Positions 1 to 32,839 of a stretch of 32,839 bases of DNA are shown one piece after another; the stretch's first letter is position 1, and each line of letters begins with the position of its first letter. The stretch covers positions 1 through 32,839 of IMG/VR virus record IMGVR_UViG_3300009515_000014, one strand, 5' to 3'. A program made the translations under genes and the position numbers. The notes beneath the pieces are model-generated. The model saw only the letters and a list, made by a program, of their open reading frames with translations. It made no database searches and had not been told where the DNA came from. Source of the DNA: a virus.

Positions 1-99
1 GGCGGGTCGGCTATAGACTTCGACTCTGGCTTATATCAAAATCTGAATTATGCAGTTAACAAATCAAACCCTGCTGCTTCGGCAATATCTGTTCTATTG
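1..99. repeat. Exact 99-bp direct terminal repeat, copy 1 (identical to 32741..32839); signature of a circularly closed or terminally redundant contig
   Basis: Bases 1-99 (GGCGGGTCGGCTATAGACTT...ATATCTGTTCTATTG) recur verbatim as the last 99 bases of the window. Confidence 0.97.
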
Positions 100-8136: not shown

Positions 8137-8343
8137 ATGGCAGATGAGAAGAAAGACTGGAAAGGAATTTGGCTATCCAAGACTTTTTGGATGAACGTGA
8201 TCGGCGCAGTAGCCTATTTTTGGAGCCCGATAAAAGACTTCGTGTCAGAAGAGCAGCTCGTTATGCTACTTACTTCTGCCAACGTGGTCATGCGTTTCTT
8301 CACTGAGAAGAAAGCTGTACTCAAAGAGCCAGCAGCGAAGTGA
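8137..8343 (+). CDS. Small two-TMD membrane protein (class II holin-like)
   Basis: 68 aa; hydrophobic stretches TFWMNVIGAVAYFW and LVMLLTSANVVMRFF, charged C-terminus; SD AAGGAGTGAATCATG. Confidence 0.45.
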   Translation: MADEKKDWKGIWLSKTFWMNVIGAVAYFWSPIKDFVSEEQLVMLLTSANVVMRFFTEKKAVLKEPAAK

Positions 8344-8561
8344 CAATACAGAGCGGCGGGTCTATGCAGATAGTGATCTCCCTTATCGTCGGAGCGATGG
8401 TAGGGGTTAGCACTTTGTATGCTACGTTTGCCACCAAGACAGAAGTCGAGAAGATGGTTCAGGTCAAGCACGACTCTGTGATGTTTACCCTGAAAGAGAT
8501 ACTAGTGAAGATTGAGACAGTAGATCAGCGCCTATGGGATCTTCAAAAGGATAAACTGTAG
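8340..8561 (+). CDS. Single N-terminal TMD + coiled-coil protein (holin/antiholin or lysis accessory candidate)
   Basis: GTGA overlap with upstream stop (alternative ATG at 8364); IVISLIVGAMVGVSTLYATFA then a charged helical tail. Confidence 0.4.
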   Translation: MTIQSGGSMQIVISLIVGAMVGVSTLYATFATKTEVEKMVQVKHDSVMFTLKEILVKIETVDQRLWDLQKDKL

Positions 8562-11559: not shown

Positions 11560-11999
11560 TGGCAAATTATTCTAAACCTGAAAAGCTAGTCGAAACGGAC
11601 GTGATGTGTTGGCTGAAAAGTAATGGGTTTAGTTGTCATGTGGTCGAATCAAAAGCTGTTTATTCTAAAGCTGCGGGGAGATACCTTAGAGGTATGGCAG
11701 CCAGGGGATTCTTAGACATAGTTGGAAACGACAAGCTAGGGGCAGCATGTTTCATTGAGCTCAAGGCCAAAGGGAAGAGATCAACACTCAGACCTGCTCA
11801 GCATGAATTCATCATAGATAAGATATGCACAAACGCTTTCGCTGTAGTGGTAGACTCTGCCGAACTACTATCTAGCTATTATGAGAAGTGGAACCATCTT
11901 CGCTTCAAGGATTCTGCGATGGCGCAGGAGTATCTACAAAGTATAATTCCACACAGTAAGAAAAAAAGGGCTAACCCACTAGACGCATTTGAGGTTTGA
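11559..11999 (+). CDS. VRR-NUC family (PD-(D/E)xK) nuclease
   Basis: TAATG overlap start; GFLDIVGNDKLGAACFIELKAKGKRSTLRPAQHEFI fits the D...E-x-K...Q VRR-NUC core. Confidence 0.65.
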   Translation: MANYSKPEKLVETDVMCWLKSNGFSCHVVESKAVYSKAAGRYLRGMAARGFLDIVGNDKLGAACFIELKAKGKRSTLRPAQHEFIIDKICTNAFAVVVDSAELLSSYYEKWNHLRFKDSAMAQEYLQSIIPHSKKKRANPLDAFEV

Positions 12000-12435
12000 G
12001 TCTGAACCTCAAGAGTTCTCGCAACACATTCGGACAAATGCCAGGGCAAAGCTTTCCAGGGTCGAACTCTCTGTGCCCAAAGAATCTATCCGGCGTTATC
12101 CCATGCCTAAGATATATCGACCCGTAGAGAGTTATCAATGAAGCTATCTGTTTTTCCGTCATTGAGTTTCTGCCAGCGTAGGCTATGCCGATCGAGTTCT
12201 TATTCATTCCGCCTTTCTTGCAGTGGGCACCAACTGAACTTTCTGGCCTGCCAGGTTCGACTGTTCCATCGCATTTGATAATCCAGTGATAGCCGCAATG
12301 AACGCCTGAAGCTGGATCTTTCCACCCATTGTCTGCATGCCAGCGATTGACTTGATTGAATCCATAGGCGTTGCTATAGTTTGGAGAATCAAGGCAGTGA
12401 AACACTATGGAGTCTATCTTTCTTTCAGTGGACAT
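11971..12435 (-). CDS. N-acetylmuramoyl-L-alanine amidase (Amidase_2/PGRP, T7-lysozyme-like) endolysin
   Basis: IVFHCLDSP...VNRWHADNGW...GYHWIIKCDGTVEPGRP...GAHCKKGGMNKNSIGIAYAG...GHREFDPGKLCPG are the hallmark amidase_2 blocks. Confidence 0.85.
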   Translation of the reverse strand: MSTERKIDSIVFHCLDSPNYSNAYGFNQVNRWHADNGWKDPASGVHCGYHWIIKCDGTVEPGRPESSVGAHCKKGGMNKNSIGIAYAGRNSMTEKQIASLITLYGSIYLRHGITPDRFFGHREFDPGKLCPGICPNVLRELLRFRLKPQMRLVG

Positions 12436-12619
12436 AAGTGCAATTCCCCCAAGGTACTGGGCTCAATAAAACTACTTCAGCCCATTCGATGATTCCGTCT
12501 TCCCATTTCACCTTTGCCATTATAGACCCCTTCGACAGGCTAATCACTATGACTTTTTCGTTTCCTATATACAGATGATCACCTAGTTTGATCATAGGGG
12601 TCTTCTGTTTCTTTCTCAT
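12425..12619 (-). CDS. Hypothetical small beta-rich protein (64 aa)
   Basis: ATG at 12619 forms an ATGA overlap with the upstream stop; the 3' end overlaps the amidase start by 11 nt. Confidence 0.5.
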   Translation of the reverse strand: MRKKQKTPMIKLGDHLYIGNEKVIVISLSKGSIMAKVKWEDGIIEWAEVVLLSPVPWGNCTYVH

Positions 12620-13029
12620 CTCAGAGACTTGATGAAGTAATGAACTCTGCCCTCGACCCATGGGTTTTGTGGATAATAGAAATGAAAGCCCGTTCTTATT
12701 AAATTAGCTATTGATCTGTGATTGTCTAGAGTGGTGTAGGTGACGACATCTTTAAATCCATTTCTTCTGGCCCAAAGAACTCTCCAGTTGATTGAGTCTC
12801 TATGAAAGCCAGCCCCATGGACGAAGGTCGCAGAGGTAGCTAGAAAGACAGTTGTCGGATCATGTGCCGGAGTGCTGACAGAGCAGAAACCTATCGTCTT
12901 GTATCCTTCATCTTTGATTAGCCAACAGGTGTCGCTTGGGAAGTCTCTCATTGTATCGGAGGGGAATGCTCGTCGATACATATTCGATAGGGCTTGATAG
13001 TCTTTTGTGATTTTAAATCTAGCCAGCAT
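12616..13029 (-). CDS. GNAT-like N-acetyltransferase candidate
   Basis: ATG at 13029 overlaps the upstream TAA (TAATG); FVHGAGFHRDSINWRVLWARRNGFKDVVTYTTLDNHRSIANLIRTGFHF resembles GNAT motifs A/B. Confidence 0.5.
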   Translation of the reverse strand: MLARFKITKDYQALSNMYRRAFPSDTMRDFPSDTCWLIKDEGYKTIGFCSVSTPAHDPTTVFLATSATFVHGAGFHRDSINWRVLWARRNGFKDVVTYTTLDNHRSIANLIRTGFHFYYPQNPWVEGRVHYFIKSLR

Positions 13030-13721
13030 TACAGCTTCCCCGTCCACCTTCCGTACTTGTCTAGCATCATAGGGATAAAGTGCGGGATGCCATTTAGAAC
13101 TATGCCAGTGCCCAGAATAGGCTTCACTCGAATGGTCTTACCATAAGCGAATGCATAGGCATTCTTGTCTATAAGGCACCCCGTATTCATTCCAAAAATA
13201 AGTCTGTCATGACAGGCGACATATTGAATCCCAGCATAGGAGTGAATGTGTCCTATGACAGTTGATCTCATGTTTTGAACAGCGGCCTTTGTGGCTCCGT
13301 ATTGGCCAGAGACTCCTTCGCCGTGTTCATATTTTACTTCGTCTATAATCCAAGAGTCTCTCCACTCCCATCCTTTTGGAGCCTCCATGAATTCCTTGTA
13401 AGACTTCAGAAACTTCTTTGGGATGCCTGCTTTGAATGCTCGCTTCAATGGTCGGACAGTATGGTTTGAAGTGCAGGCTTTGACCTTTGGGAAGATCTTA
13501 TAGAGTTCGTGCATGAACGCGAGTGCCGCGTCTAGCTCGTGTCCTGCGCTGAATCCATCGGGGTCTGAATCCCACTGGCCTAAAGCATGACAGTCAACTT
13601 CGTCACCCATACAAACAACTTCGTGCGGTTTGTATTGACCCTTCATTGTCTTGAGGAAGTCTATAGTATCTAGATGGTGGAATGGGGCTTGAATATCACT
13701 AAGAGCGAGAACGTTAGCCAT
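13029..13721 (-). CDS. Calcineurin-like metallophosphoesterase
   Basis: Ordered motifs LSDIQAPFHH, MGDEVD, TSNHTVRP, IGHIHS. Confidence 0.8.
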   Translation of the reverse strand: MANVLALSDIQAPFHHLDTIDFLKTMKGQYKPHEVVCMGDEVDCHALGQWDSDPDGFSAGHELDAALAFMHELYKIFPKVKACTSNHTVRPLKRAFKAGIPKKFLKSYKEFMEAPKGWEWRDSWIIDEVKYEHGEGVSGQYGATKAAVQNMRSTVIGHIHSYAGIQYVACHDRLIFGMNTGCLIDKNAYAFAYGKTIRVKPILGTGIVLNGIPHFIPMMLDKYGRWTGKL

Positions 13722-13818: not shown

Positions 13819-14058
13819 CTAGAGATCGACACCGCAATTAAGTGGCGATTCAATCTCCAACACTTTGCCAACTTTGGCAAGGTTTTTTGCTAACATTGGG
13901 CGGCCGTGGTGTTCAAGTTCCCAGATGGCGGTTCTAGATACGCCGCTCCGTTCTGCTAGCTCTGTGTAGGTGATATCTTTTTCTGTTCTTGCAGCTCTTA
14001 GTTCTTCGCCAAAAGCTGCGATCAGATCCTTTTCATTCTGTGAAAGTCTGCGGGGCAT
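13819..14058 (-). CDS. XRE-family helix-turn-helix transcriptional regulator
   Basis: FGEELRAARTEKDITYTELAERSGVSRTAIWELEHHGRPMLAKNLAKVGKVLEI fits HTH_3. Confidence 0.8.
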   Translation of the reverse strand: MPRRLSQNEKDLIAAFGEELRAARTEKDITYTELAERSGVSRTAIWELEHHGRPMLAKNLAKVGKVLEIESPLNCGVDL

Positions 14059-14251
14059 AGTCCTTGTCTCCTACGTATTCGCCTGGACAATATTCGTGAA
14101 AGGTTCTATTAGTCCATACTTTCGCAGGGTAGACAACCTTGCAAACGCGGCAAACATGCCCCGCCATATATCCGATATCCACAGAATGAAATTGATTAGG
14201 CCTTTTTTTTGTGGCGATTTTGCATTCTTTGCATTTGATCCCATACCCCAT
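14033..14251 (-). CDS. Small zinc-ribbon protein (72 aa)
   Basis: Start moved to the internal ATG 14251, preceded by GGAG inside the upstream gene end; CKEC ... CRVC pairs. Confidence 0.55.
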   Translation of the reverse strand: MGYGIKCKECKIATKKRPNQFHSVDIGYMAGHVCRVCKVVYPAKVWTNRTFHEYCPGEYVGDKDYAPQTFTE

Positions 14252-14256
14252 GATCA

Positions 14257-14595
14257 CTAGAACTCCTTTAGAAAGAACGGGAAGGCTAGCCCCAATGGTA
14301 CGCCCGTAGAGCCCGCATAGAGCTCGTTTCTGTTGAACCCTTGATCTGATCTGTCTTTGGCTACTTGAACCAGCACAGCCCCTGTGAGCGTGATCAAAGT
14401 CGCTGTCCACATGGCGTCTCGCTTATTCATTGAGAACCACTTTCTCGCTGCACGGTAAGTGCCGACAGTCACACCCATAGCTATAGTCGTATGTGCGTAT
14501 AGTCTGGAATCGTTGAAAGACGTTTGCGCCGCCTGTGTACTAGTAGAGAATGCAATTGTACTAGAAACTAGTATGCTTATTAATAGTGCTTTCAT
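14257..14595 (-). CDS. Exported membrane protein (signal peptide plus hydrophobic segments)
   Basis: MKALLISILVSSTIAFSTSTQA/AQ signal-like N-terminus; later TATLITLTGAVLVQV and GVPLGLAFPFF. Confidence 0.6.
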   Translation of the reverse strand: MKALLISILVSSTIAFSTSTQAAQTSFNDSRLYAHTTIAMGVTVGTYRAARKWFSMNKRDAMWTATLITLTGAVLVQVAKDRSDQGFNRNELYAGSTGVPLGLAFPFFLKEF

Positions 14596-14607
14596 TCAAG
14601 CCACTCC

Positions 14608-14997
14608 TTAGATAATCTCCTTTCGATTGATAAGGAGATCGTTATAGTTCTTTTTGCCTTGTCGATCATAGAGCTCAATGATCCATCTGCCATATTTGCC
14701 CTTTTTGATTGGGCAGACAATAACGTTGTTCTTGTCTTGACGCAACAGGTTTTGCAGCCTTTCCTTTGCTGCTATGCCTCGTATCTTCTCGGCCTTGTCT
14801 CGTGTCCTGGTTTCGGGCGCATTGTAACGCGCTAATCTGCCCCTTTCATGCACCATAACGTTGAAACCTAGAATGACAATCATATCGATAGTGTCGCCGT
14901 CTATGACTCTTTCAACGTTTGCATACCTGCATGTGATGATCATCGCCTGCGCAAAGTTCATGCCAAAGCTAACGCAAAGGGCTAAAATATACTTCAT
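14608..14997 (-). CDS. Staphylococcal-nuclease-like thermonuclease (SNase) with N-terminal signal peptide
   Basis: MKYILALCVSFGMNFAQA signal; VERVIDGDTID, RLARYNAPET, KYGRWIIEL match the SNase core blocks. Confidence 0.8.
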   Translation of the reverse strand: MKYILALCVSFGMNFAQAMIITCRYANVERVIDGDTIDMIVILGFNVMVHERGRLARYNAPETRTRDKAEKIRGIAAKERLQNLLRQDKNNVIVCPIKKGKYGRWIIELYDRQGKKNYNDLLINRKEII

Positions 14998-15232
14998 CCT
15001 TGAGCCTCCTTAGATATTTTTTGATTTCACCTGTGTCTTTTGGACTGAAGCAGTTGAAGCCCCTCATGTGCTCCACGGGCTTCATGCTATATGATCCGTC
15101 CTTGAGCGTACAATCGGCCACAGTTCTGTTGATTATGGCGCAAGGCTCTACTTCTGGCGCTGGGATACTGACACAGCTACTCGAAGATATCATCGCGCAG
15201 GCGGCGACTAGACTCCTTAAGGGCTTCTTCAT
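14969..15232 (-). CDS. Small exported Cys-containing lipoprotein-like protein
   Basis: MKKPLRSLVAACAMISSSSC then Pro-rich VSIPAPEVEPC; starts inside the 3' end of the upstream gene in another frame; start uncertain (GTG 15259 possible). Confidence 0.5.
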   Translation of the reverse strand: MKKPLRSLVAACAMISSSSCVSIPAPEVEPCAIINRTVADCTLKDGSYSMKPVEHMRGFNCFSPKDTGEIKKYLRRLKDEVYFSPLR

Positions 15233-15374
15233 CCCCACTATCCACAGACTTTTCAACACTCTCCACTTCCTTGTCGACCTTCTTATTATACCTCATAACA
15301 CGAGAAAACTTGACCCAAAATTGAGCGAGCCTTTTGGCTAGGAATGTAAGGAGCTGAGATAGAATCACGTTCAT
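15177..15374 (-). CDS. Hypothetical 65-aa protein, amphipathic N-terminus and acidic C-terminus
   Basis: ATGA overlap with upstream stop (15371..15374) suggests translational coupling. Confidence 0.45.
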   Translation of the reverse strand: MNVILSQLLTFLAKRLAQFWVKFSRVMRYNKKVDKEVESVEKSVDSGDEEALKESSRRLRDDIFE

Positions 15375-16234
15375 AGATACTTCTCAACCAGGGGGGCGCA
15401 GAGTTTATCGAGTGGTGGCGCGTGACTCTCAGGTCTGAAGTAACTAATGAGGCAGGCTTGTGCGGGGTGAACTCTCGAAGGGATACGTGGTTTGTCTCTT
15501 CCATACCAAGTGTCATAGACGGGGTTCAGTCTTAGTCTATAGATGCGCTTTGCTAACCATGATAATGGCGTTGGTAGGTAGATTGAAGCTTGAATCATCA
15601 TGCAGATCATTTGCAAATCATCGTTATCATTCTTGTCTCTGGACTTGATTACTTTCACTATAGAATTGACGACCAAAAAAGTATCACAGACGAGAACCAC
15701 TGGCCAAAGAACCACCCAGTTGAAGCCCCTAAGGTAACAATTGATGTGATGAGGCAGAGCAAAGTCGGGCAGTTTCCAATGTTTGCCCTCCCATGTTCTG
15801 TCAACGATGCGGGATTTGATAGCTTCATTTTGTTCAACCAAAGTTTCATACTGCCAATTATGCCTCGTGTTCGTATAGAAACCAAACCTTGACAGCAATT
15901 TGACAAACATTTGACAGAGCCTAGACTTCATCCCCCACGCGCCTAGTGCCATTGCAATAGGTAGCTGTTGATCGCGACTTGAAGTCTTAGGGCTAAAGCC
16001 CCAATGCTTTGGATCTGCTGATCGTCTATAGGTCCCGTCGCTTAGAGAAAGCTTATCCAATGATTTGCTAAACTCCACCCGATGAGGAAGTGCAGTATCA
16101 AAAAGGAGAGCATTACAAAAGAAAAGAAAGCCTGTTCTGTTGCATTGGTCGCCTGAATCTCCATTCTTCTGTCGTATGAGTCCATTAGAATCTTTGAATT
16201 CATTGACTAACTCTAGGGTCATTAAATTGTCCAT
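15371..16234 (-). CDS. Hypothetical 287-aa protein with internal hydrophobic segment(s); function unknown
   Basis: Longest ORF of the region; WVVLWPVVLVCDTFLVVNSIV is TMD-like; no motif recognised. Confidence 0.6.
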   Translation of the reverse strand: MDNLMTLELVNEFKDSNGLIRQKNGDSGDQCNRTGFLFFCNALLFDTALPHRVEFSKSLDKLSLSDGTYRRSADPKHWGFSPKTSSRDQQLPIAMALGAWGMKSRLCQMFVKLLSRFGFYTNTRHNWQYETLVEQNEAIKSRIVDRTWEGKHWKLPDFALPHHINCYLRGFNWVVLWPVVLVCDTFLVVNSIVKVIKSRDKNDNDDLQMICMMIQASIYLPTPLSWLAKRIYRLRLNPVYDTWYGRDKPRIPSRVHPAQACLISYFRPESHAPPLDKLCAPLVEKYL

Positions 16235-16448
16235 TGCATACCTGCTTCACTGGAAAGGTTTGAGGGTTGCAGCGACTGACAACTGACCCGTCTTTAAAAT
16301 AGAAGTCACACTGATTGTAACACACACGGCTACGGTAGCAGCTATAGTACACAGCTCGCACATTCTGACAATCGCTTTGACTACGAACAACAGTATCACC
16401 TTCACTACACCCCACGGCTAAAAATAAAACCAAAAATAAATATTTCAT
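16200..16448 (-). CDS. Cys-rich small lipoprotein (82-aa precursor)
   Basis: Start at internal ATG 16448: MKYLFLVLFLAVGC has a canonical lipobox (LAVG/C); six further Cys in the mature part. Confidence 0.7.
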   Translation of the reverse strand: MKYLFLVLFLAVGCSEGDTVVRSQSDCQNVRAVYYSCYRSRVCYNQCDFYFKDGSVVSRCNPQTFPVKQVCNGQFNDPRVSQ

Positions 16449-16500
16449 TTGAACTTCACCCATAATATTTGCACTCCTGTCAATATGCCAATGCCGAATA

Positions 16501-17174: not shown

Positions 17175-17251
17175 TGGTCAGCCCGGGAGGATTCGAACCT
17201 CCGCTCTCTCGGTTCCAAACCGAGTGACTTACCTGACTAGCCTACGGGCTG
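17175..17251 (-). tRNA. tRNA-Pro (anticodon UGG), 77 nt, CCA encoded, A at position 37
   Basis: Hand-folded cloverleaf: CAGCCCG-TA-GGCT-AGTCAGGTA-AGTC-A-CTCGG-TTTGGAA-CCGAG-AGAGC-GGAGG-TTCGAAT-CCTCC-CGGGCTG-A-CCA; C1:G72 and A73 fit bacterial Pro identity. Confidence 0.9.
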
Positions 17252-17254
17252 CAT

Positions 17255-17686
17255 TTATTTCTTAAGTTCCTTCTTCAATGAACCTACTCGCTCGGTTAAA
17301 AATCTATTGTCTGCTAGCAGCATATCGTTTTCCCGCTTTAGCTCATTATATATCTGAGCCCGCCTATACGAATTGTTTTCGTGAAAGACGGCAGACCTTC
17401 GCCACTCTTCTTTGGTCTTGCTTTCTAATGGTAAAAGAAAATCCTTAGTCGAATCAGCAAAAAGCTTTTCAGTCTTTAGCTCTAAATCTTTTAGCTCGAA
17501 ACACTTATCGTAATATTTCTCTCTCCACCTATGGGCCAACTTATAACGCTTAGACTTTAACTCTGCTATTTTCTCAGTCGCTATTTCGAATTGTTCTTTG
17601 TAGTATTCCATGTCTCGCATTTTACTCATCCCACAATTACAAGGGTATCCAGGCGCTGGGCATCCATCTCCGTGACCATAGCTCAT
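17255..17686 (-). CDS. Hypothetical coiled-coil protein with Cys-rich N-terminus
   Basis: 143-aa ORF; stop lies 3 nt before the tRNA; GDGCPAPGYPCNCG then heptad-like helical sequence. Confidence 0.6.
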   Translation of the reverse strand: MSYGHGDGCPAPGYPCNCGMSKMRDMEYYKEQFEIATEKIAELKSKRYKLAHRWREKYYDKCFELKDLELKTEKLFADSTKDFLLPLESKTKEEWRRSAVFHENNSYRRAQIYNELKRENDMLLADNRFLTERVGSLKKELKK

Positions 17687-18982: not shown

Positions 18983-19681
18983 TTAAAAGTTTGGGGTATC
19001 ACCTGGATCAAATTGCGGTTCCATATATGCAGGTCCTTGCATCAAAGCAAAGTTCTGCACCACATCTTTGCACCAGCCTTTCGCTTCTTTGGCTCCATCG
19101 TCCGTGTAGAAGTTAACTAGGTCCTTTACTTTGTCATAGCCAACTTGACCTAGTGTTTGTCCTGCATGTTTGCCTTTAGGGAAAACATAATCGCGCCCGC
19201 TGCCGCCTGCTCCAGGTGCATAATTAGGTAGCGACGACTGCGCAGAGGTATTGGGTGACCTATGGACAGCCGTCGCTTGGGTATTGGGTCGGGACAACTC
19301 GACGGCGTCAGTGTCGTCTTCACTTGTTATCCCTAATAGGCCGCACAAAGCGTATCTCCTATAATAACTCATAAGCTTCCCGAAATTCTGTGGATTACTA
19401 TCAATCGCCATTGGTAAAACACTTTCCACAGCCTCCCCGCTCTCTACGTGTATTATAGAAGTCACTAAGACGACCCGATCTTCTATCATTGTCAATGAAT
19501 GTGTGACCAAAAGACCATGCTCTGCAAAGAGTGGCGTTAGCGTCTTCATGATCTTAGGAAGGGTTGAGAACTTATAGCTGAAAGATCCCGCCTTCGCCTC
19601 CCCGTCTTTAGACATTGTCGGCATAGCTTTCTGAACTTCAAACATTGCCTTCGTTATATTGCCCGCTACTGGTTCACTCAT
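18983..19681 (-). CDS. ERF-family single-strand annealing recombinase
   Basis: Start set to ATG 19681 (SD AAGGGAGA, 8-nt spacer); SFSYKFSTLPKIMKTLTPLFAEHGLLVTHS...HVESGE...GKLMSYYRRYALCGLLGITSEDDTD is the ERF core. Confidence 0.85.
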   Translation of the reverse strand: MSEPVAGNITKAMFEVQKAMPTMSKDGEAKAGSFSYKFSTLPKIMKTLTPLFAEHGLLVTHSLTMIEDRVVLVTSIIHVESGEAVESVLPMAIDSNPQNFGKLMSYYRRYALCGLLGITSEDDTDAVELSRPNTQATAVHRSPNTSAQSSLPNYAPGAGGSGRDYVFPKGKHAGQTLGQVGYDKVKDLVNFYTDDGAKEAKGWCKDVVQNFALMQGPAYMEPQFDPGDTPNF

Positions 19682-19925
19682 CTTCGATATCTCCCTTGTC
19701 CAAAAAAAACTGCTCATCATTGATCACTAAATCTATAGAATTTTCATGGATGAACCGTCTCATTTTCTCATAATGATTGACCCCTACTGGGTGTTTATAG
19801 CGTCCATTGCATAGCTTTTCTAATAGAGCTGTAGAGACTCCTGTCTCCGCAGCAAATTCCACATACGACAATCTATGCGCAGCTAGCCACGCAGCGATCA
19901 TTCTTCCGTTGAGTCGTCTTCTCAT
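19674..19925 (-). CDS. Helix-turn-helix early regulator (Cro/CI-like)
   Basis: First leftward gene; LSYVEFAAETGVSTALLEKLCNG HTH-like; SD AGGAGAGAG. Confidence 0.6.
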   Translation of the reverse strand: MRRRLNGRMIAAWLAAHRLSYVEFAAETGVSTALLEKLCNGRYKHPVGVNHYEKMRRFIHENSIDLVINDEQFFLDKGDIEDE

Positions 19926-32621: not shown

Positions 32622-32839
32622 TGGCTGTAGTCTTTGCCATGCGTGGCGACTCCCTGAATGCTAGATACACGAAGGACTTCAACGAGCCCAACAATGGCGG
32701 CTCCACCACTTCGGCGGTTGTTGCCGACGCTGGTGCCATAGGCGGGTCGGCTATAGACTTCGACTCTGGCTTATATCAAAATCTGAATTATGCAGTTAAC
32801 AAATCAAACCCTGCTGCTTCGGCAATATCTGTTCTATTG
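32621..32839 (+). CDS. LamG-fold virion protein, 5' portion (continues at base 100 after removal of the duplicated 99 bp)
   Basis: ATG 32621 overlaps upstream TAA; open to the window end; in phase with frame 1 at the window start. Confidence 0.7.
   Translation, partial: MAVVFAMRGDSLNARYTKDFNEPNNGGSTTSAVVADAGAIGGSAIDFDSGLYQNLNYAVNKSNPAASAISVLL
32741..32839. repeat. Exact 99-bp direct terminal repeat, copy 2
   Basis: Identical to 1..99. Confidence 0.97.

What the first reader, a model, noticed from the sequence alone, without database searches (positions are those of the whole stretch)
14257..16448. Cassette of consecutive exported / envelope-targeted phage proteins with no recognisable counterpart
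Seven back-to-back minus-strand genes are linked by stop/start overlaps, and five carry export or membrane signals. They are: a canonical-lipobox Cys-rich lipoprotein (16200..16448, LAVG/C plus 6 Cys), a 287-aa protein with a TMD-like core and no motif I recognise (15371..16234), a second Cys-containing lipoprotein-like protein (14969..15232), a signal-peptide SNase nuclease (14608..14997), and a signal-peptide multi-hydrophobic protein (14257..14595). The sixth gene is a 65-aa amphipathic/acidic protein (15177..15374) with no clear export signal. The recognisable endolysin lies 2 kb away and the holin-like genes are on the other strand. This therefore does not look like a standard holin-endolysin-spanin cassette. 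A coherent reading is an envelope-remodelling or superinfection-exclusion module, with small lipoproteins as in T5 Llp or phi80 Cor plus a periplasmic nuclease. The combination is not one I can name as a described system.
Basis: partly seen in the sequence, partly recalled or inferred. Interest (0 to 1): 0.7.

Follow-up and report, generated by a model that had tools for sequence, protein, structure and literature searches.

The report
Patchwork of exported phage accessory genes
A tightly packed run of six genes in a new 32.7-kb phage does encode four small exported proteins, but it is a mix of unrelated accessory genes, one pair of which looks lysis-related, and not a single envelope or exclusion system.

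Summary
The six ORFs exist at the stated coordinates and are tightly packed. Heuristics support export signals for four. These are two lipoproteins (16200-16448 and 14969-15232), a minimal SNase-like nuclease with an added Sec-type leader (14608-14997), and a leader-bearing hydrophobic 112-aa protein (14257-14595).

The 287-aa protein is not a membrane protein. It has no signal peptide and models confidently as a soluble alpha/alpha-toroid. It belongs to a large unannotated family found in phages and Bdellovibrionota. Its "TMD-like core" carries invariant Pro and Asp.

The block is not conserved. Homologues of the 287-aa gene sit in different places in about ten other phage contigs, without the other genes. 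The exception is the overlapping 65-aa/87-aa pair. This pair recurs in one distant phage with the same 56-nt, +1-frame overlap. There it sits at the end of the putative late operon, beside a TMD-plus-coiled-coil protein. The relative of that protein in a third phage directly follows an SLT endolysin.

The pair is therefore most likely a dispersed, non-canonical spanin-like lysis function. The other lipoprotein, the nuclease and the 112-aa protein are orphans. Superinfection exclusion remains possible for them but has no support. Interest is moderate.

The parts
16200..16448 (-). 82-aa predicted outer-membrane-type lipoprotein. Leader is MKYLFLVLFLAVG/C with Ser at +2, and the mature part has 6 further Cys. 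An orphan. An alternative start at 16463 would give MGEVQMKY...
   Evidence: No hit in Pfam, PHROGs, NCBIfam or GenBank phages. One sub-threshold PADLOC match at E 0.02. No similarity to T5 Llp. The codon-usage frame test is ambiguous.
15371..16234 (-). 287-aa soluble alpha/alpha-toroid protein with no signal peptide. Member of a large unannotated family with the motifs GDxGD (26-29), SRDQ (86-89) and DxDD (203-206).
   Evidence: AlphaFold2 model with pLDDT 89.4 and pTM 0.90. Foldseek results. No Pfam match in any of 37 members.
15177..15374 (-). 65-aa protein with a cationic amphipathic N-terminal helix (hydrophobic moment 0.63) and an acidic helical tail. It has no TMD. It is the upstream partner of the overlapping pair.
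   Evidence: Positional homologue L001 6608-6904, pairwise E 9e-5. That pair has the same 56-nt, +1-frame overlap with its lipoprotein gene.
14969..15232 (-). 87-aa predicted outer-membrane-type lipoprotein. Leader is MKKPLRSLVAACAMISSSS/C with Val at +2, followed by a Pro-rich tether, a conserved EPCxIIN...C motif and a C-terminal amphipathic helix. Spanin-like (o-spanin) candidate.
   Evidence: Homologue L001 6331-6663, E 1e-6 to 2e-8. The lipobox Cys aligns between the two. No similarity to T5 Llp.
14608..14997 (-). 129-aa minimal SNase-like nuclease with an 18-aa Sec-type leader (AQA/M). The calcium-site motif DTPE reads NAPE, and the protein lacks the C-terminal portion found in homologues.
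   Evidence: Pfam SNase 21.1 bits against a cutoff of 21, and phrog_452 at 2.9e-24. Homologues are 36-40% identical in 406 phage records, 369 of them cyanophage. The two read (S-TIM61, Syn19) have no leader. AAGGAGG lies 7 nt upstream of the start.
14257..14595 (-). 112-aa orphan protein with a Sec-type leader (TQA/A), one marginal hydrophobic segment (61-79) and a hydrophobic C-terminus.
   Evidence: No homologue found. The resemblance to YfiM is by eye only, and BLASTP finds none.
14033..14251 (-). 72-aa CxxC...CxxC zinc-ribbon-like protein, next in the operon. It has no export signal and is not part of any envelope function.
   Evidence: Sequence read. The 5' extension of this ORF to 14410 is not favoured by the frame test.
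8340..8561 (+). 73-aa protein with an N-terminal TMD and a coiled coil, called 'TMCC' in this report. It is the only strong TMD protein in the genome. Candidate i-spanin or holin that co-occurs with the 65/87-aa pair's homologues.
   Evidence: Homologue L001 7131-7349, E 9e-12. Relative L015 8226-8540, E 0.0075, lies directly after an SLT endolysin.
8137..8343 (+). 68-aa small membrane-like protein upstream of TMCC.
   Evidence: No significant family match: one sub-threshold PHROG hit at E 0.077 and none in Pfam.
11971..12435 (-). Amidase_2 endolysin without a signal peptide. It is the last gene of the same leftward operon.
   Evidence: Pfam Amidase_2 at 2.3e-18 and phrog_822 at 2.6e-30. Phage matches.
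13029..13721 (-). 230-aa metallophosphoesterase. Context gene: a phosphoesterase of some subfamily lies near the 287-aa homologue in L001, L004 and L005 as well.
   Evidence: phrog_221 at 5.4e-54. Contexts. The phosphoesterases are not BLAST-similar to one another.

Best explanation
The 2.2-kb stretch is not one system. It is a mosaic run of accessory genes in the leftward operon of a complete, circularly assembled phage of about 32.7 kb from a poorly sampled lineage. That operon runs HTH, Erf, ..., phosphoesterase, ..., amidase endolysin.

1. **The 287-aa gene.** It encodes a cytoplasmic alpha/alpha-toroid protein that looks like an enzyme. It belongs to a large uncharacterised family that moves between positions in phage genomes and also occurs in Bdellovibrionota chromosomes.
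2. **The 65-aa/87-aa pair.** This overlapping pair is a conserved two-gene unit: an amphipathic protein plus an outer-membrane-type lipoprotein. In a distant phage it lies at the end of the putative late operon, next to the homologue of the window's TMD-plus-coiled-coil protein (8340-8561). Most likely (inferred) it takes part in the last, outer-membrane step of lysis. The lipoprotein would act as the o-spanin-like component and the 73-aa TMD protein as the inner-membrane partner. The lysis genes of this phage would then be scattered rather than in one cassette.
3. **The three orphans.** These are the 82-aa Cys-rich lipoprotein, the leader-bearing minimal SNase and the 112-aa leader-bearing protein. 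They are probably delivered to the periplasm or outer membrane (inferred from heuristics and Cys content). Their roles, such as exclusion, DNA scavenging or lysis control, are open.
For: **Genome context.**
- The contig has a 99-bp terminal direct repeat, so the assembly is circular.
- There is no megablast match to any GenBank phage.
- The best TerL identity to a known phage is 24-28%.

**The 287-aa protein.**
- A profile search finds 1056 cluster representatives at E<=1e-3.
- None of 37 members scanned has a significant Pfam hit.
- The AlphaFold2 model has pLDDT 89.4 and pTM 0.90 and is all-alpha.
- The best PDB neighbours are alpha/alpha toroids, none at E<1e-3.
- BFVD has an uncharacterised Caudovirales relative at E 1e-11, TM 0.70.
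- Invariant P178 and D184 lie inside the hydrophobic helix.
- Only about 5 of 185 members carry an N-terminal signal-like extension.
- The gene's position varies among phages: next to TerL in L011, RecT in L001 and HNH in L004.
- Five of 7 cellular hits are Bdellovibrionota.

**The pair.**
- The 87-aa protein matches the L001 110-aa lipoprotein at E 1e-6 to 2e-8, and the lipobox Cys and the EPCxIIN...C motif align.
- The 65-aa protein matches the L001 98-aa protein at pairwise E 9e-5.
- Both pairs overlap by 56 nt in the +1 frame.
- The L001 order is 666 aa, 72 aa (TMCC), 75 aa, 98 aa, 110 aa.
- TMCC is homologous to window 8340-8561 at E 9e-12.
- A TMCC relative in L015 lies between an SLT endolysin (Pfam 3.8e-10) and a small TMD protein. 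This is downstream of the homologue of the window's 746-aa tail protein.
- L013 and L014 show analogous cassettes of lipoprotein plus TMD-coiled-coil protein, with an endolysin only in L013.
- The 82-aa and 87-aa proteins were the only products found with a lipobox near the start of the ORF, and w8340 is the only strong N-terminal (type II-like) TMD protein among the window's genes.

**The orphans.** No homologues turned up in any library searched.
Against: - The 65-aa partner has no TMD, so the pair fails the definition of a two-component spanin.
- The proposed inner-membrane partner is 6.4 kb away on the other strand, and at 73 aa it is short for an i-spanin. It could equally be the holin.
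- In the window the pair is not next to the endolysin or any holin candidate.
- The lysis context of the homologues is itself inferred. Those genes are uncharacterised, L001 shows no endolysin in the part recovered, and the L015 link rests on E 0.0075.
- The L013 and L014 parallels have no significant sequence support.
- A position at the end of the tail operon also fits cor/llp-type exclusion lipoproteins.
- Export signals were judged by heuristics only.
- The SNase could start at the internal Met19 and be cytoplasmic.
Confidence: 0.5

Rival explanations
1. First reader's reading. The six genes form one envelope-remodelling or superinfection-exclusion module. Small outer-membrane lipoproteins would block receptors (as T5 Llp and phi80 Cor do) and a periplasmic nuclease would destroy incoming DNA.
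For: Four products carry plausible export signals. Signal-bearing genes cluster more than chance, P about 0.03. The genes lie in the operon that starts with early genes (Erf), as llp does in T5. The SNase leader is an addition absent from the two homologues read. The 82-aa protein has the size, lipobox and disulfide-rich make-up of Llp-type proteins.
Against: There is no co-occurrence of the genes in any related locus. The largest gene is a signal-less soluble protein. There is no similarity to Llp. No PHROG family matched the two lipoproteins, the 65-aa or the 287-aa protein at E<=0.1, so no PHROG exclusion family and no PADLOC model above noise. The 65/87-aa pair has a lysis-type context elsewhere. 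Neither lipoprotein gene is next to the receptor-binding tail genes.
Confidence: 0.15
2. The whole stretch is a displaced lysis module. The 112-aa protein would be a holin or antiholin, the 65/87-aa pair the spanin equivalent, and the 287-aa alpha/alpha-toroid a second, new kind of cell-envelope-degrading enzyme released by the holin.
For: 287-aa homologues lie within about 2.5 kb of lysis-type genes in the window, L001, L013, L014 and L015. In L014 the homologue occupies the slot just upstream of a module of TMD-coiled-coil protein, small protein, amphipathic protein and lipoprotein. A Bdellovibrionaceae subfamily carries signal peptides, as secreted wall-degrading enzymes of predators do. 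The amidase has no adjacent holin.
Against: About 97% of family members have no signal. In L004, L005, L011, L012, L016 and L017 the gene sits among DNA-metabolism or packaging genes. No structural neighbour is a peptidoglycan hydrolase. Proximity to lysis genes can follow from shared genome layout in related phages. The 112-aa protein lacks a strong TMD and the charged tail typical of holins.
Confidence: 0.12
3. Some of the small ORFs are not genes, or their signals are chance features. In particular, the 82-aa ORF may be non-coding and the SNase may start at Met19 and be cytoplasmic, like its relatives.
For: The frame test does not favour the 82-aa frame and is ambiguous for the 87-aa frame. 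The 82-aa and 112-aa sequences as called here are not in the protein collection. The two SNase homologues read start directly at the domain.
Against: The 110-codon open frame, its ribosome-binding site and its lipobox together are unlikely by chance, and there is no competing long ORF. The 87-aa gene has a homologue. The SNase long form has the strong AAGGAGG site while Met19 has none. The 129-aa form is the one called in the source metagenome.
Confidence: 0.1

Closest known systems
Two-component spanins (lambda Rz/Rz1 type, overlapped architecture), as defined in PMC6139136
   Same: A small outer-membrane-type lipoprotein gene starts inside the 3' end of the upstream gene in the +1 frame (56-nt overlap). 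The upstream product has a charged helical C-terminal part. The lipoprotein has a Pro-rich tether and periplasmic Cys. Homologues sit in a lysis-type context in a relative. A type II membrane protein with a coiled coil (8340-8561) co-occurs with the pair.
   Different: The upstream 65-aa protein has no TMD, only an amphipathic helix. In this genome the pair is not beside the endolysin or a holin candidate. The only candidate inner-membrane partner is 6.4 kb away on the other strand and is only 73 aa long. There is no sequence similarity to any known spanin family in PHROGs or Pfam.
T5 Llp / phi80-type Cor superinfection-exclusion lipoproteins
   Same: The 82-aa protein is a small lipobox protein of about the same size (82 against 77 aa precursor). 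It has a non-Asp +2 residue and disulfide-forming Cys, and it is encoded in an operon that begins with early genes.
   Different: BLASTP finds no similarity to T5 Llp, and there is no PHROG match. The gene is not next to the receptor-binding tail gene. The protein has 6 Cys against 2 in Llp. No functional evidence exists.
Staphylococcal nuclease fold (Pfam PF00565) and phage 'endonuclease' phrog_452, for example in cyanomyoviruses S-TIM61 and Syn19
   Same: The DGDT motif, the Arg35, Glu43 and Arg87 equivalents and the GKYGR motif are present. Identity to the phage homologues (mostly cyanophage) is 36-40%.
   Different: It carries an N-terminal Sec-type leader that the two homologues read lack. 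The DTPE calcium-site motif reads NAPE. It ends before the C-terminal segment that holds the nucleotide-binding Tyr residues. The Pfam score is only at the threshold.
Alpha/alpha-toroid (six-hairpin) proteins: squalene-hopene and class II terpene cyclases, alpha2-macroglobulin/C3 thioester domains, GH76 and AGE-type enzymes
   Same: The 287-aa model is an all-alpha toroid-like bundle. Conserved polar residues sit at the N-termini of alternate helices. A DxDD-like motif (consensus DVDDN) recalls class II terpene cyclases.
   Different: No match reaches E<1e-3 and TM-scores are 0.35-0.48. It is a single domain of about 250-300 aa. It has no QW repeats, no thioester motif, and no sequence match to any Pfam or PDB entry.
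YfiM / DUF2279 small envelope proteins
   Same: The 112-aa protein has a similar length and leader, and a by-eye similar spacing of His, small-residue helices and a K[DE]...D...G motif.
   Different: BLASTP finds no alignment and Pfam DUF2279 does not match. YfiM has a lipobox, while the 112-aa protein has an SPase I-type site.

Membership tests
Two-component spanin (PMC6139136) | o-spanin: outer-membrane lipoprotein with a lipoylation signal (lipobox + Cys) | tested here: met
   The 87-aa protein has a basic n-region MKKPLR, a hydrophobic region, then SSSS/C. It fits the PROSITE-type pattern. The Cys aligns with GIS/C of the L001 homologue. This is a heuristic result, not LipoP.
Two-component spanin (PMC6139136) | i-spanin: integral inner-membrane protein with an N-terminal TMD, encoded by the partner gene | tested here: not met
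   The best 19-aa window of the 65-aa protein contains K14 and R15 and sums to +7.3 on the Hessa scale, against +0.9 for a true TMD in w8340. The same holds for the L001 98-aa homologue.
Two-component spanin (PMC6139136) | Embedded, overlapped or separated gene pair | tested here: met
   There is a 56-nt overlap with the lipoprotein gene in the +1 frame, in both the window and L001.
Two-component spanin (PMC6139136) | Located in the lysis cassette with holin and endolysin | tested here: not met
   In the window the amidase is 2.5 kb downstream of the pair and the small membrane proteins are 6.4 kb away on the other strand. Only the homologues in L001, and the TMCC relative in L015, have a lysis-type context.
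Two-component spanin (PMC6139136) | Required for outer-membrane disruption; complements lambda RzRz1 | not testable with these tools
   Needs genetics.
Unimolecular spanin (T1 gp11 type) | N-terminal lipobox plus C-terminal TMD in one protein | tested here: not met
   Neither the 82-aa nor the 87-aa protein has a C-terminal hydrophobic segment.
Llp/Cor exclusion lipoproteins | Sequence relationship to T5 Llp or a PHROG exclusion family | tested here: not met
   BLASTP finds no alignment at E<=100 for either lipoprotein against T5 Llp. PHROGs gives 0 families. Cor itself was not compared directly.
Llp/Cor exclusion lipoproteins | Small outer-membrane lipoprotein that inactivates the phage's own receptor | not testable with these tools
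   Only the generic features (size, lipobox, Cys) are present.
SNase (PF00565) | Profile match at or above the gathering score | tested here: met
   21.1 bits against a cutoff of 21, covering profile positions 3-69 of 107. This is backed by phrog_452 at 2.9e-24 and 406 phage records with a match. There is no direct phmmer hit to any PDB SNase.
SNase (PF00565) | Complete catalytic and calcium site (D21, R35, D40, T41, E43, R87 in S. aureus numbering) | tested here: inconclusive
   A by-eye alignment to the two homologues, and to the S. aureus motif recalled from memory, gives the following. The D21, R35, E43 and R87 equivalents are present. D40 and T41 read N and A (NAPE). The C-terminal Tyr-bearing segment is absent.
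   Segment 170-197 holds invariant P178 and D184 and sums to +4.3 on the Hessa scale. It is a helix of a compact all-alpha model with pLDDT 89.
Alpha/alpha-toroid enzymes (terpene cyclase / six-hairpin glycosidase-like) | Significant structural match to a member | tested here: inconclusive
   The top PDB hits are all toroids, but the best E is 0.06 and TM is 0.35-0.48.
DUF2279 / YfiM | Sequence or profile match | tested here: not met
   Pfam finds no match at E<=0.1. BLASTP against E. coli YfiM gives no alignment.

The most novel reading that the evidence does not exclude
The 65-aa amphipathic protein, the 87-aa lipoprotein and the 73-aa TMD-coiled-coil protein would form a previously undescribed three-part outer-membrane-disruption system, a spanin variant whose lipoprotein partner is not itself membrane-spanning. 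In addition, the 287-aa alpha/alpha-toroid family would be a new envelope-acting enzyme shared between phages and predatory Bdellovibrionota.
Probability: 0.12. Interest if true: 0.7.

Novelty: new variant of a known kind. Interest (0 to 1): 0.38.

Why it matters
**Lysis biology.** If the pair and its TMD partner do carry out the outer-membrane step of lysis, they would widen the definition of spanins. One partner would be amphipathic but not membrane-spanning, and the genes would be scattered over the genome. This would also help explain part of the fraction of Gram-negative phages (about 15%) in which no spanin can be found (10.1101/515445, listed; PMC6139136).

**A new protein family.** The 287-aa family has at least a thousand 50%-identity clusters, no Pfam or PDB relative and a confident toroid model. 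It is restricted mainly to phages and Bdellovibrionota, which makes it a well-defined target for biochemical characterisation.

**The nuclease.** A phage SNase that has gained a secretion leader is a simple, testable candidate for periplasmic DNA degradation.

None of these points is yet more than inference. As one system, the cassette is not supported.

Tried and rejected
- **Close relatives of the phage.** Megablast of the region and of 25 kb found nothing. IMG/VR scans with the phosphoesterase and Erf proteins found no close relatives.
- **Relatives of the small proteins.**
  - tblastn of the 112-aa and 82-aa proteins against GenBank phages found nothing.
  - Scans for relatives of the 87-aa lipoprotein in IMG/VR and JGI metagenomes returned only the already known contig.
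  - The scan for the TMD-coiled-coil protein returned nothing.
- **A wasted search.** I spent the last word-index protein search on a chimeric query of five concatenated small proteins. It returned nothing, not even the 65-aa protein, which is in the collection. That search says nothing about whether homologues exist.
- **The 287-aa protein.**
  - The first structure model, from 4 sequences, was poor (pLDDT 62) and its Foldseek hits were not significant. I replaced it with a 37-sequence model.
  - Profile searches of the PDB by sequence gave only noise.
- **PADLOC.** It gave only sub-threshold noise.
- **YfiM/DUF2279 idea for the 112-aa protein.** Rejected, because BLASTP and Pfam find no match.
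- **L013 and L014 modules.**
  - Leave-one-out HMMs did not confirm that the four-gene module of L014 is homologous to those of the window and L001, with E about 1. BLAST gave no support for L013 either.
  - I use both only as architectural parallels.
- **Phosphoesterase linkage.** The link between the 287-aa gene and a metallophosphoesterase is not a conserved gene pair, since the four phosphoesterases are not BLAST-similar to one another.
- **Other scans and searches.**
  - The promoter and terminator scan gave counts close to shuffled controls.
  - Plasmid SNases are not close relatives.
  - Literature searches found no description of such a cassette.

Full report
**Context**

The window is a circularly assembled contig with a 99-bp terminal direct repeat. 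It is therefore a complete phage genome of about 32.7 kb.
- The plus strand carries replication, packaging, head and tail genes. These include a DnaD-like protein, TerL, portal, major head protein and tail fibre.
- The minus strand from about 19925 to 11971 is one leftward gene string. It runs HTH, Erf (18983-19720), small ORFs, tRNA-Pro (17175-17251), the genes of the finding, a zinc-ribbon-like protein and an HTH protein. It then continues with a metallophosphoesterase (13029-13721), a GNAT-like protein, a 78-aa protein and an Amidase_2 endolysin (11971-12435).
- The phage has no close relative. Megablast finds nothing, and TerL is at most 24-28% identical to known phages, which infect Gram-negative hosts or cyanobacteria.

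**Checking the observation**

The six ORFs lie at the stated coordinates and are tightly packed, with overlaps of 35, 4, 56 and 29 nt and a 12-nt gap. The next gene (14033-14251) is a CxxC...CxxC protein without an export signal.

A codon-usage frame test trained on the long genes supports the annotated frame for the 287-aa, 65-aa, SNase and 112-aa genes. It is ambiguous for the two Cys-rich lipoprotein genes.

SignalP and LipoP were not available, so I used explicit rules: n-region charge, uncharged h-region, the -3/-1 rule, and the PROSITE-type lipobox pattern.
- **82-aa protein.** The leader is MKYLFLVLFLAVG/C with Ser at +2, and six further Cys suggest folding in an oxidising compartment.
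- **87-aa protein.** The leader is MKKPLRSLVAACAMISSSS/C. The ATG at 15232 and the lipobox Cys20 are both supported by alignment with its homologue, which reads VKKSLLMPLGICCVIFGIS/C.
- **SNase.** The leader is MKYILALCVSFGMNFAQA/M, behind an AAGGAGG site 7 nt upstream.
- **112-aa protein.** The leader is MKALLISILVSSTIAFSTSTQA/A, with one further marginal hydrophobic segment.

Among the roughly 62 genes of the genome, N-terminal signal-like segments are concentrated here and at 8137-8561. Random placement gives such clustering with P of about 0.03.

**The 287-aa protein**

- The word-index search found only three relatives, all on phage contigs. A profile search then found 1056 cluster representatives at E<=1e-3.
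- The family has no Pfam domain and no sequence relative in the PDB.
- Its near-invariant positions are D26, G28, D29, G67, R71, S86-R87-D88-Q89, R116, N122, D157, R169, P178, D184, D205-D206 and T222-P223.
- With a 37-sequence alignment, AlphaFold2 gives pLDDT 89.4 and pTM 0.90 and an all-alpha protein of twelve helices.
- Foldseek places it nearest to alpha/alpha toroids: alpha2-macroglobulin/C3 thioester domains, squalene-hopene and type II terpene cyclases, AprG, GH76 and AGE-type enzymes. None of these is significant, with a best E of 0.06 and TM of 0.35-0.48.
- In BFVD it matches an uncharacterised Caudovirales protein at E 1e-11 and TM 0.70.
- The conserved polar residues sit at the N-termini of alternate helices, as in toroid enzymes. 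A DxDD-like motif (consensus DVDDN, here DNDD at 203-206) recalls class II terpene cyclases. This is a lead only.
- The protein has no signal peptide. About 5 of 185 family members have an N-terminal signal-like extension, and these include Bdellovibrionaceae MAGs.
- Five of seven hits in reference genomes are Bdellovibrionota. There the gene stands alone in varied chromosomal contexts.

**Do the genes travel together?**

They do not. The 287-aa gene occupies different positions in other phage contigs.
- L001: between RecT and a metallophosphoesterase.
- L004: after an HNH gene and before peptide deformylase and a phosphoesterase.
- L005: before three small membrane proteins and a phosphoesterase.
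- L011: directly upstream of TerL. This TerL is 54% identical to the window's, making L011 the closest relative found.
- L012, L016 and L017: among small early genes.

None of these loci has a homologue of the 82-aa, SNase or 112-aa proteins. The four phosphoesterases are not BLAST-similar to each other.

**The 65-aa/87-aa pair**

This is the one conserved unit.
- In L001-L003, a 98-aa and a 110-aa gene are homologous to the pair. The lipoprotein matches at E 1e-6 to 2e-8. The upstream partner matches at pairwise E 9e-5, with a shared LAKxLxxxWxxxSRxM amphipathic helix. They overlap by the same 56 nt in the +1 frame.
- There the pair ends the putative late operon, in the order 666 aa, 72 aa, 75 aa, 98 aa, 110 aa.
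- The 72-aa protein has an N-terminal TMD and a coiled coil, so I call this family TMCC. It is homologous to window 8340-8561 at E 9e-12, which lies just upstream of the 746-aa tail protein.
- A two-sequence HMM of this family also hits L015 8226-8540, at E 0.0075 among 962 ORFs. That gene sits directly after an SLT-domain endolysin (Pfam 3.8e-10) and before a small TMD protein. All of this is downstream of the homologue of the window's 746-aa protein (E 2e-100).
- L013 has a lipoprotein, an apparent M15-type peptidase endolysin (judged by eye from an SxHxxxxAxD-like motif, not scanned against Pfam), a TMD-coiled-coil protein and a holin-like protein.
- L014 has, directly after its 287-aa homologue, a TMD-coiled-coil protein, a small protein, an amphipathic protein and an overlapping lipoprotein.
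- The L013 and L014 sets are architectural parallels only. Leave-one-out HMMs and BLAST give no significant support.

**Interpreting the pair**

The defining features of spanins are taken from PMC6139136.
- Features met: the 87-aa protein meets the o-spanin features (lipobox, small size, Pro-rich tether, periplasmic Cys), and the overlapped +1 architecture fits.
- Features not met: the 65-aa partner has no TMD, and the pair is not in a lysis cassette in this genome.

I therefore do not file it as a canonical two-component spanin. The best-supported working model is a dispersed lysis apparatus made of four parts:
- the amidase endolysin (11971-12435);
- small membrane proteins at 8137-8561, one of which would be the holin and/or the inner-membrane spanin-like partner;
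- the 87-aa lipoprotein as the outer-membrane component;
- the conserved 65-aa amphipathic protein as an accessory or third component.

PMC6139136 itself notes that an i-spanin encoded far from the o-spanin gene would escape detection. The end of a tail operon is also where cor-type exclusion genes lie, so exclusion remains a rival for this lipoprotein.

**The SNase**
- Pfam SNase scores only at threshold (21.1 against 21 bits), but phrog_452 scores 2.9e-24. 406 phage records, 369 of them cyanophage, hold a match at 36-40% identity.
- The two homologues read (S-TIM61, Syn19) start directly at the domain, so the 18-aa leader is an addition in this phage.
- By eye, the DGDT motif and the equivalents of Arg35, Glu43 and Arg87 are present. 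The DTPE calcium-site motif reads NAPE, and the C-terminal segment is missing. Activity is therefore plausible but uncertain.
- There is no direct hit to a solved SNase, and plasmid SNases are not close relatives.

**The remaining orphans**

The 82-aa lipoprotein and the 112-aa protein have no homologue in any library or collection I could search. The 82-aa and 87-aa proteins show no similarity to T5 Llp. A by-eye resemblance of the 112-aa protein to E. coli YfiM (DUF2279) is not supported by BLASTP or Pfam.

**Verdict**

Four exported small proteins are plausibly real, and one claimed membrane protein is not. The interpretation as a single envelope-remodelling or exclusion module is not supported by co-occurrence. 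The stretch is a mosaic of three kinds of gene:
- a mobile, uncharacterised toroid-enzyme gene;
- a conserved amphipathic-protein/lipoprotein pair with a lysis-type context in relatives;
- three orphan secreted proteins.

Interest is moderate. It rests on the possible non-canonical spanin variant and on the large uncharacterised family shared between phages and Bdellovibrionota.

Noticed in passing
window 1-99 and 32741-32839: There is an exact 99-bp direct repeat at the two ends of the window. The contig is therefore a circular assembly, a complete genome of about 32.74 kb.
   Followed up: yes
window 17175-17251 (-): A tRNA-Pro (anticodon UGG) gene sits in the middle of the leftward operon. 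It lies between the 143-aa ORF (17255-17686) and an AT-rich stretch (GC 0.31-0.40) that holds the 71-aa and 115-aa ORFs.
   Followed up: partly
window 15371-16234; loci L007, L020, L022-L024: The 287-aa family has about 1056 clusters at 50% identity and no Pfam or PDB relative. In reference genomes it is almost confined to Bdellovibrionota. One Bdellovibrionaceae subfamily has an N-terminal signal-like segment followed by a Pro-rich linker.
   Followed up: partly
L014 4244-5968 and L013 9325-11352: Large secreted proteins (574 and 675 aa) share an N-terminal 'NGGFE..GW.NSGGTF' region and lie next to or near 287-aa homologues. In L011 a 119-aa secreted protein abuts the homologue. Exported genes therefore often neighbour this family, although these neighbours are not related to one another across the three loci.
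   Followed up: partly
L001 6904-7131, L014 7056-7259, L015 8120-8365: Small proteins that follow the TMD-coiled-coil gene share a 'K(S/T)AT..(x)DD' motif (KSATMSPNKYDD, KSATPVDD, ATTKTLVDD). The L015 one also has an N-terminal TMD and looks holin-like. No counterpart was recognised in the window.
   Followed up: no
window 12616-13047 (-): A 143-aa protein with weak GNAT acetyltransferase matches (Pfam E 0.004-0.016) lies between the phosphoesterase and the endolysin.
   Followed up: no
window 14033-14251 (-) and 13819-14058 (-): A 72-aa CxxC...CxxC zinc-ribbon-like protein overlaps by 26 nt the start of a 79-aa HTH_3/HTH_31 regulator inside the operon. A 98-nt gap follows before the phosphoesterase gene, which may mark a regulatory boundary.
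   Followed up: no
window 16462-16491 (-): The best sigma-70-like match in the region (TTGGCA-18-TATTAT, 10 of 12) lies just upstream of the 82-aa lipoprotein gene. The total number of promoter-like sites is not above shuffled controls.
   Followed up: no
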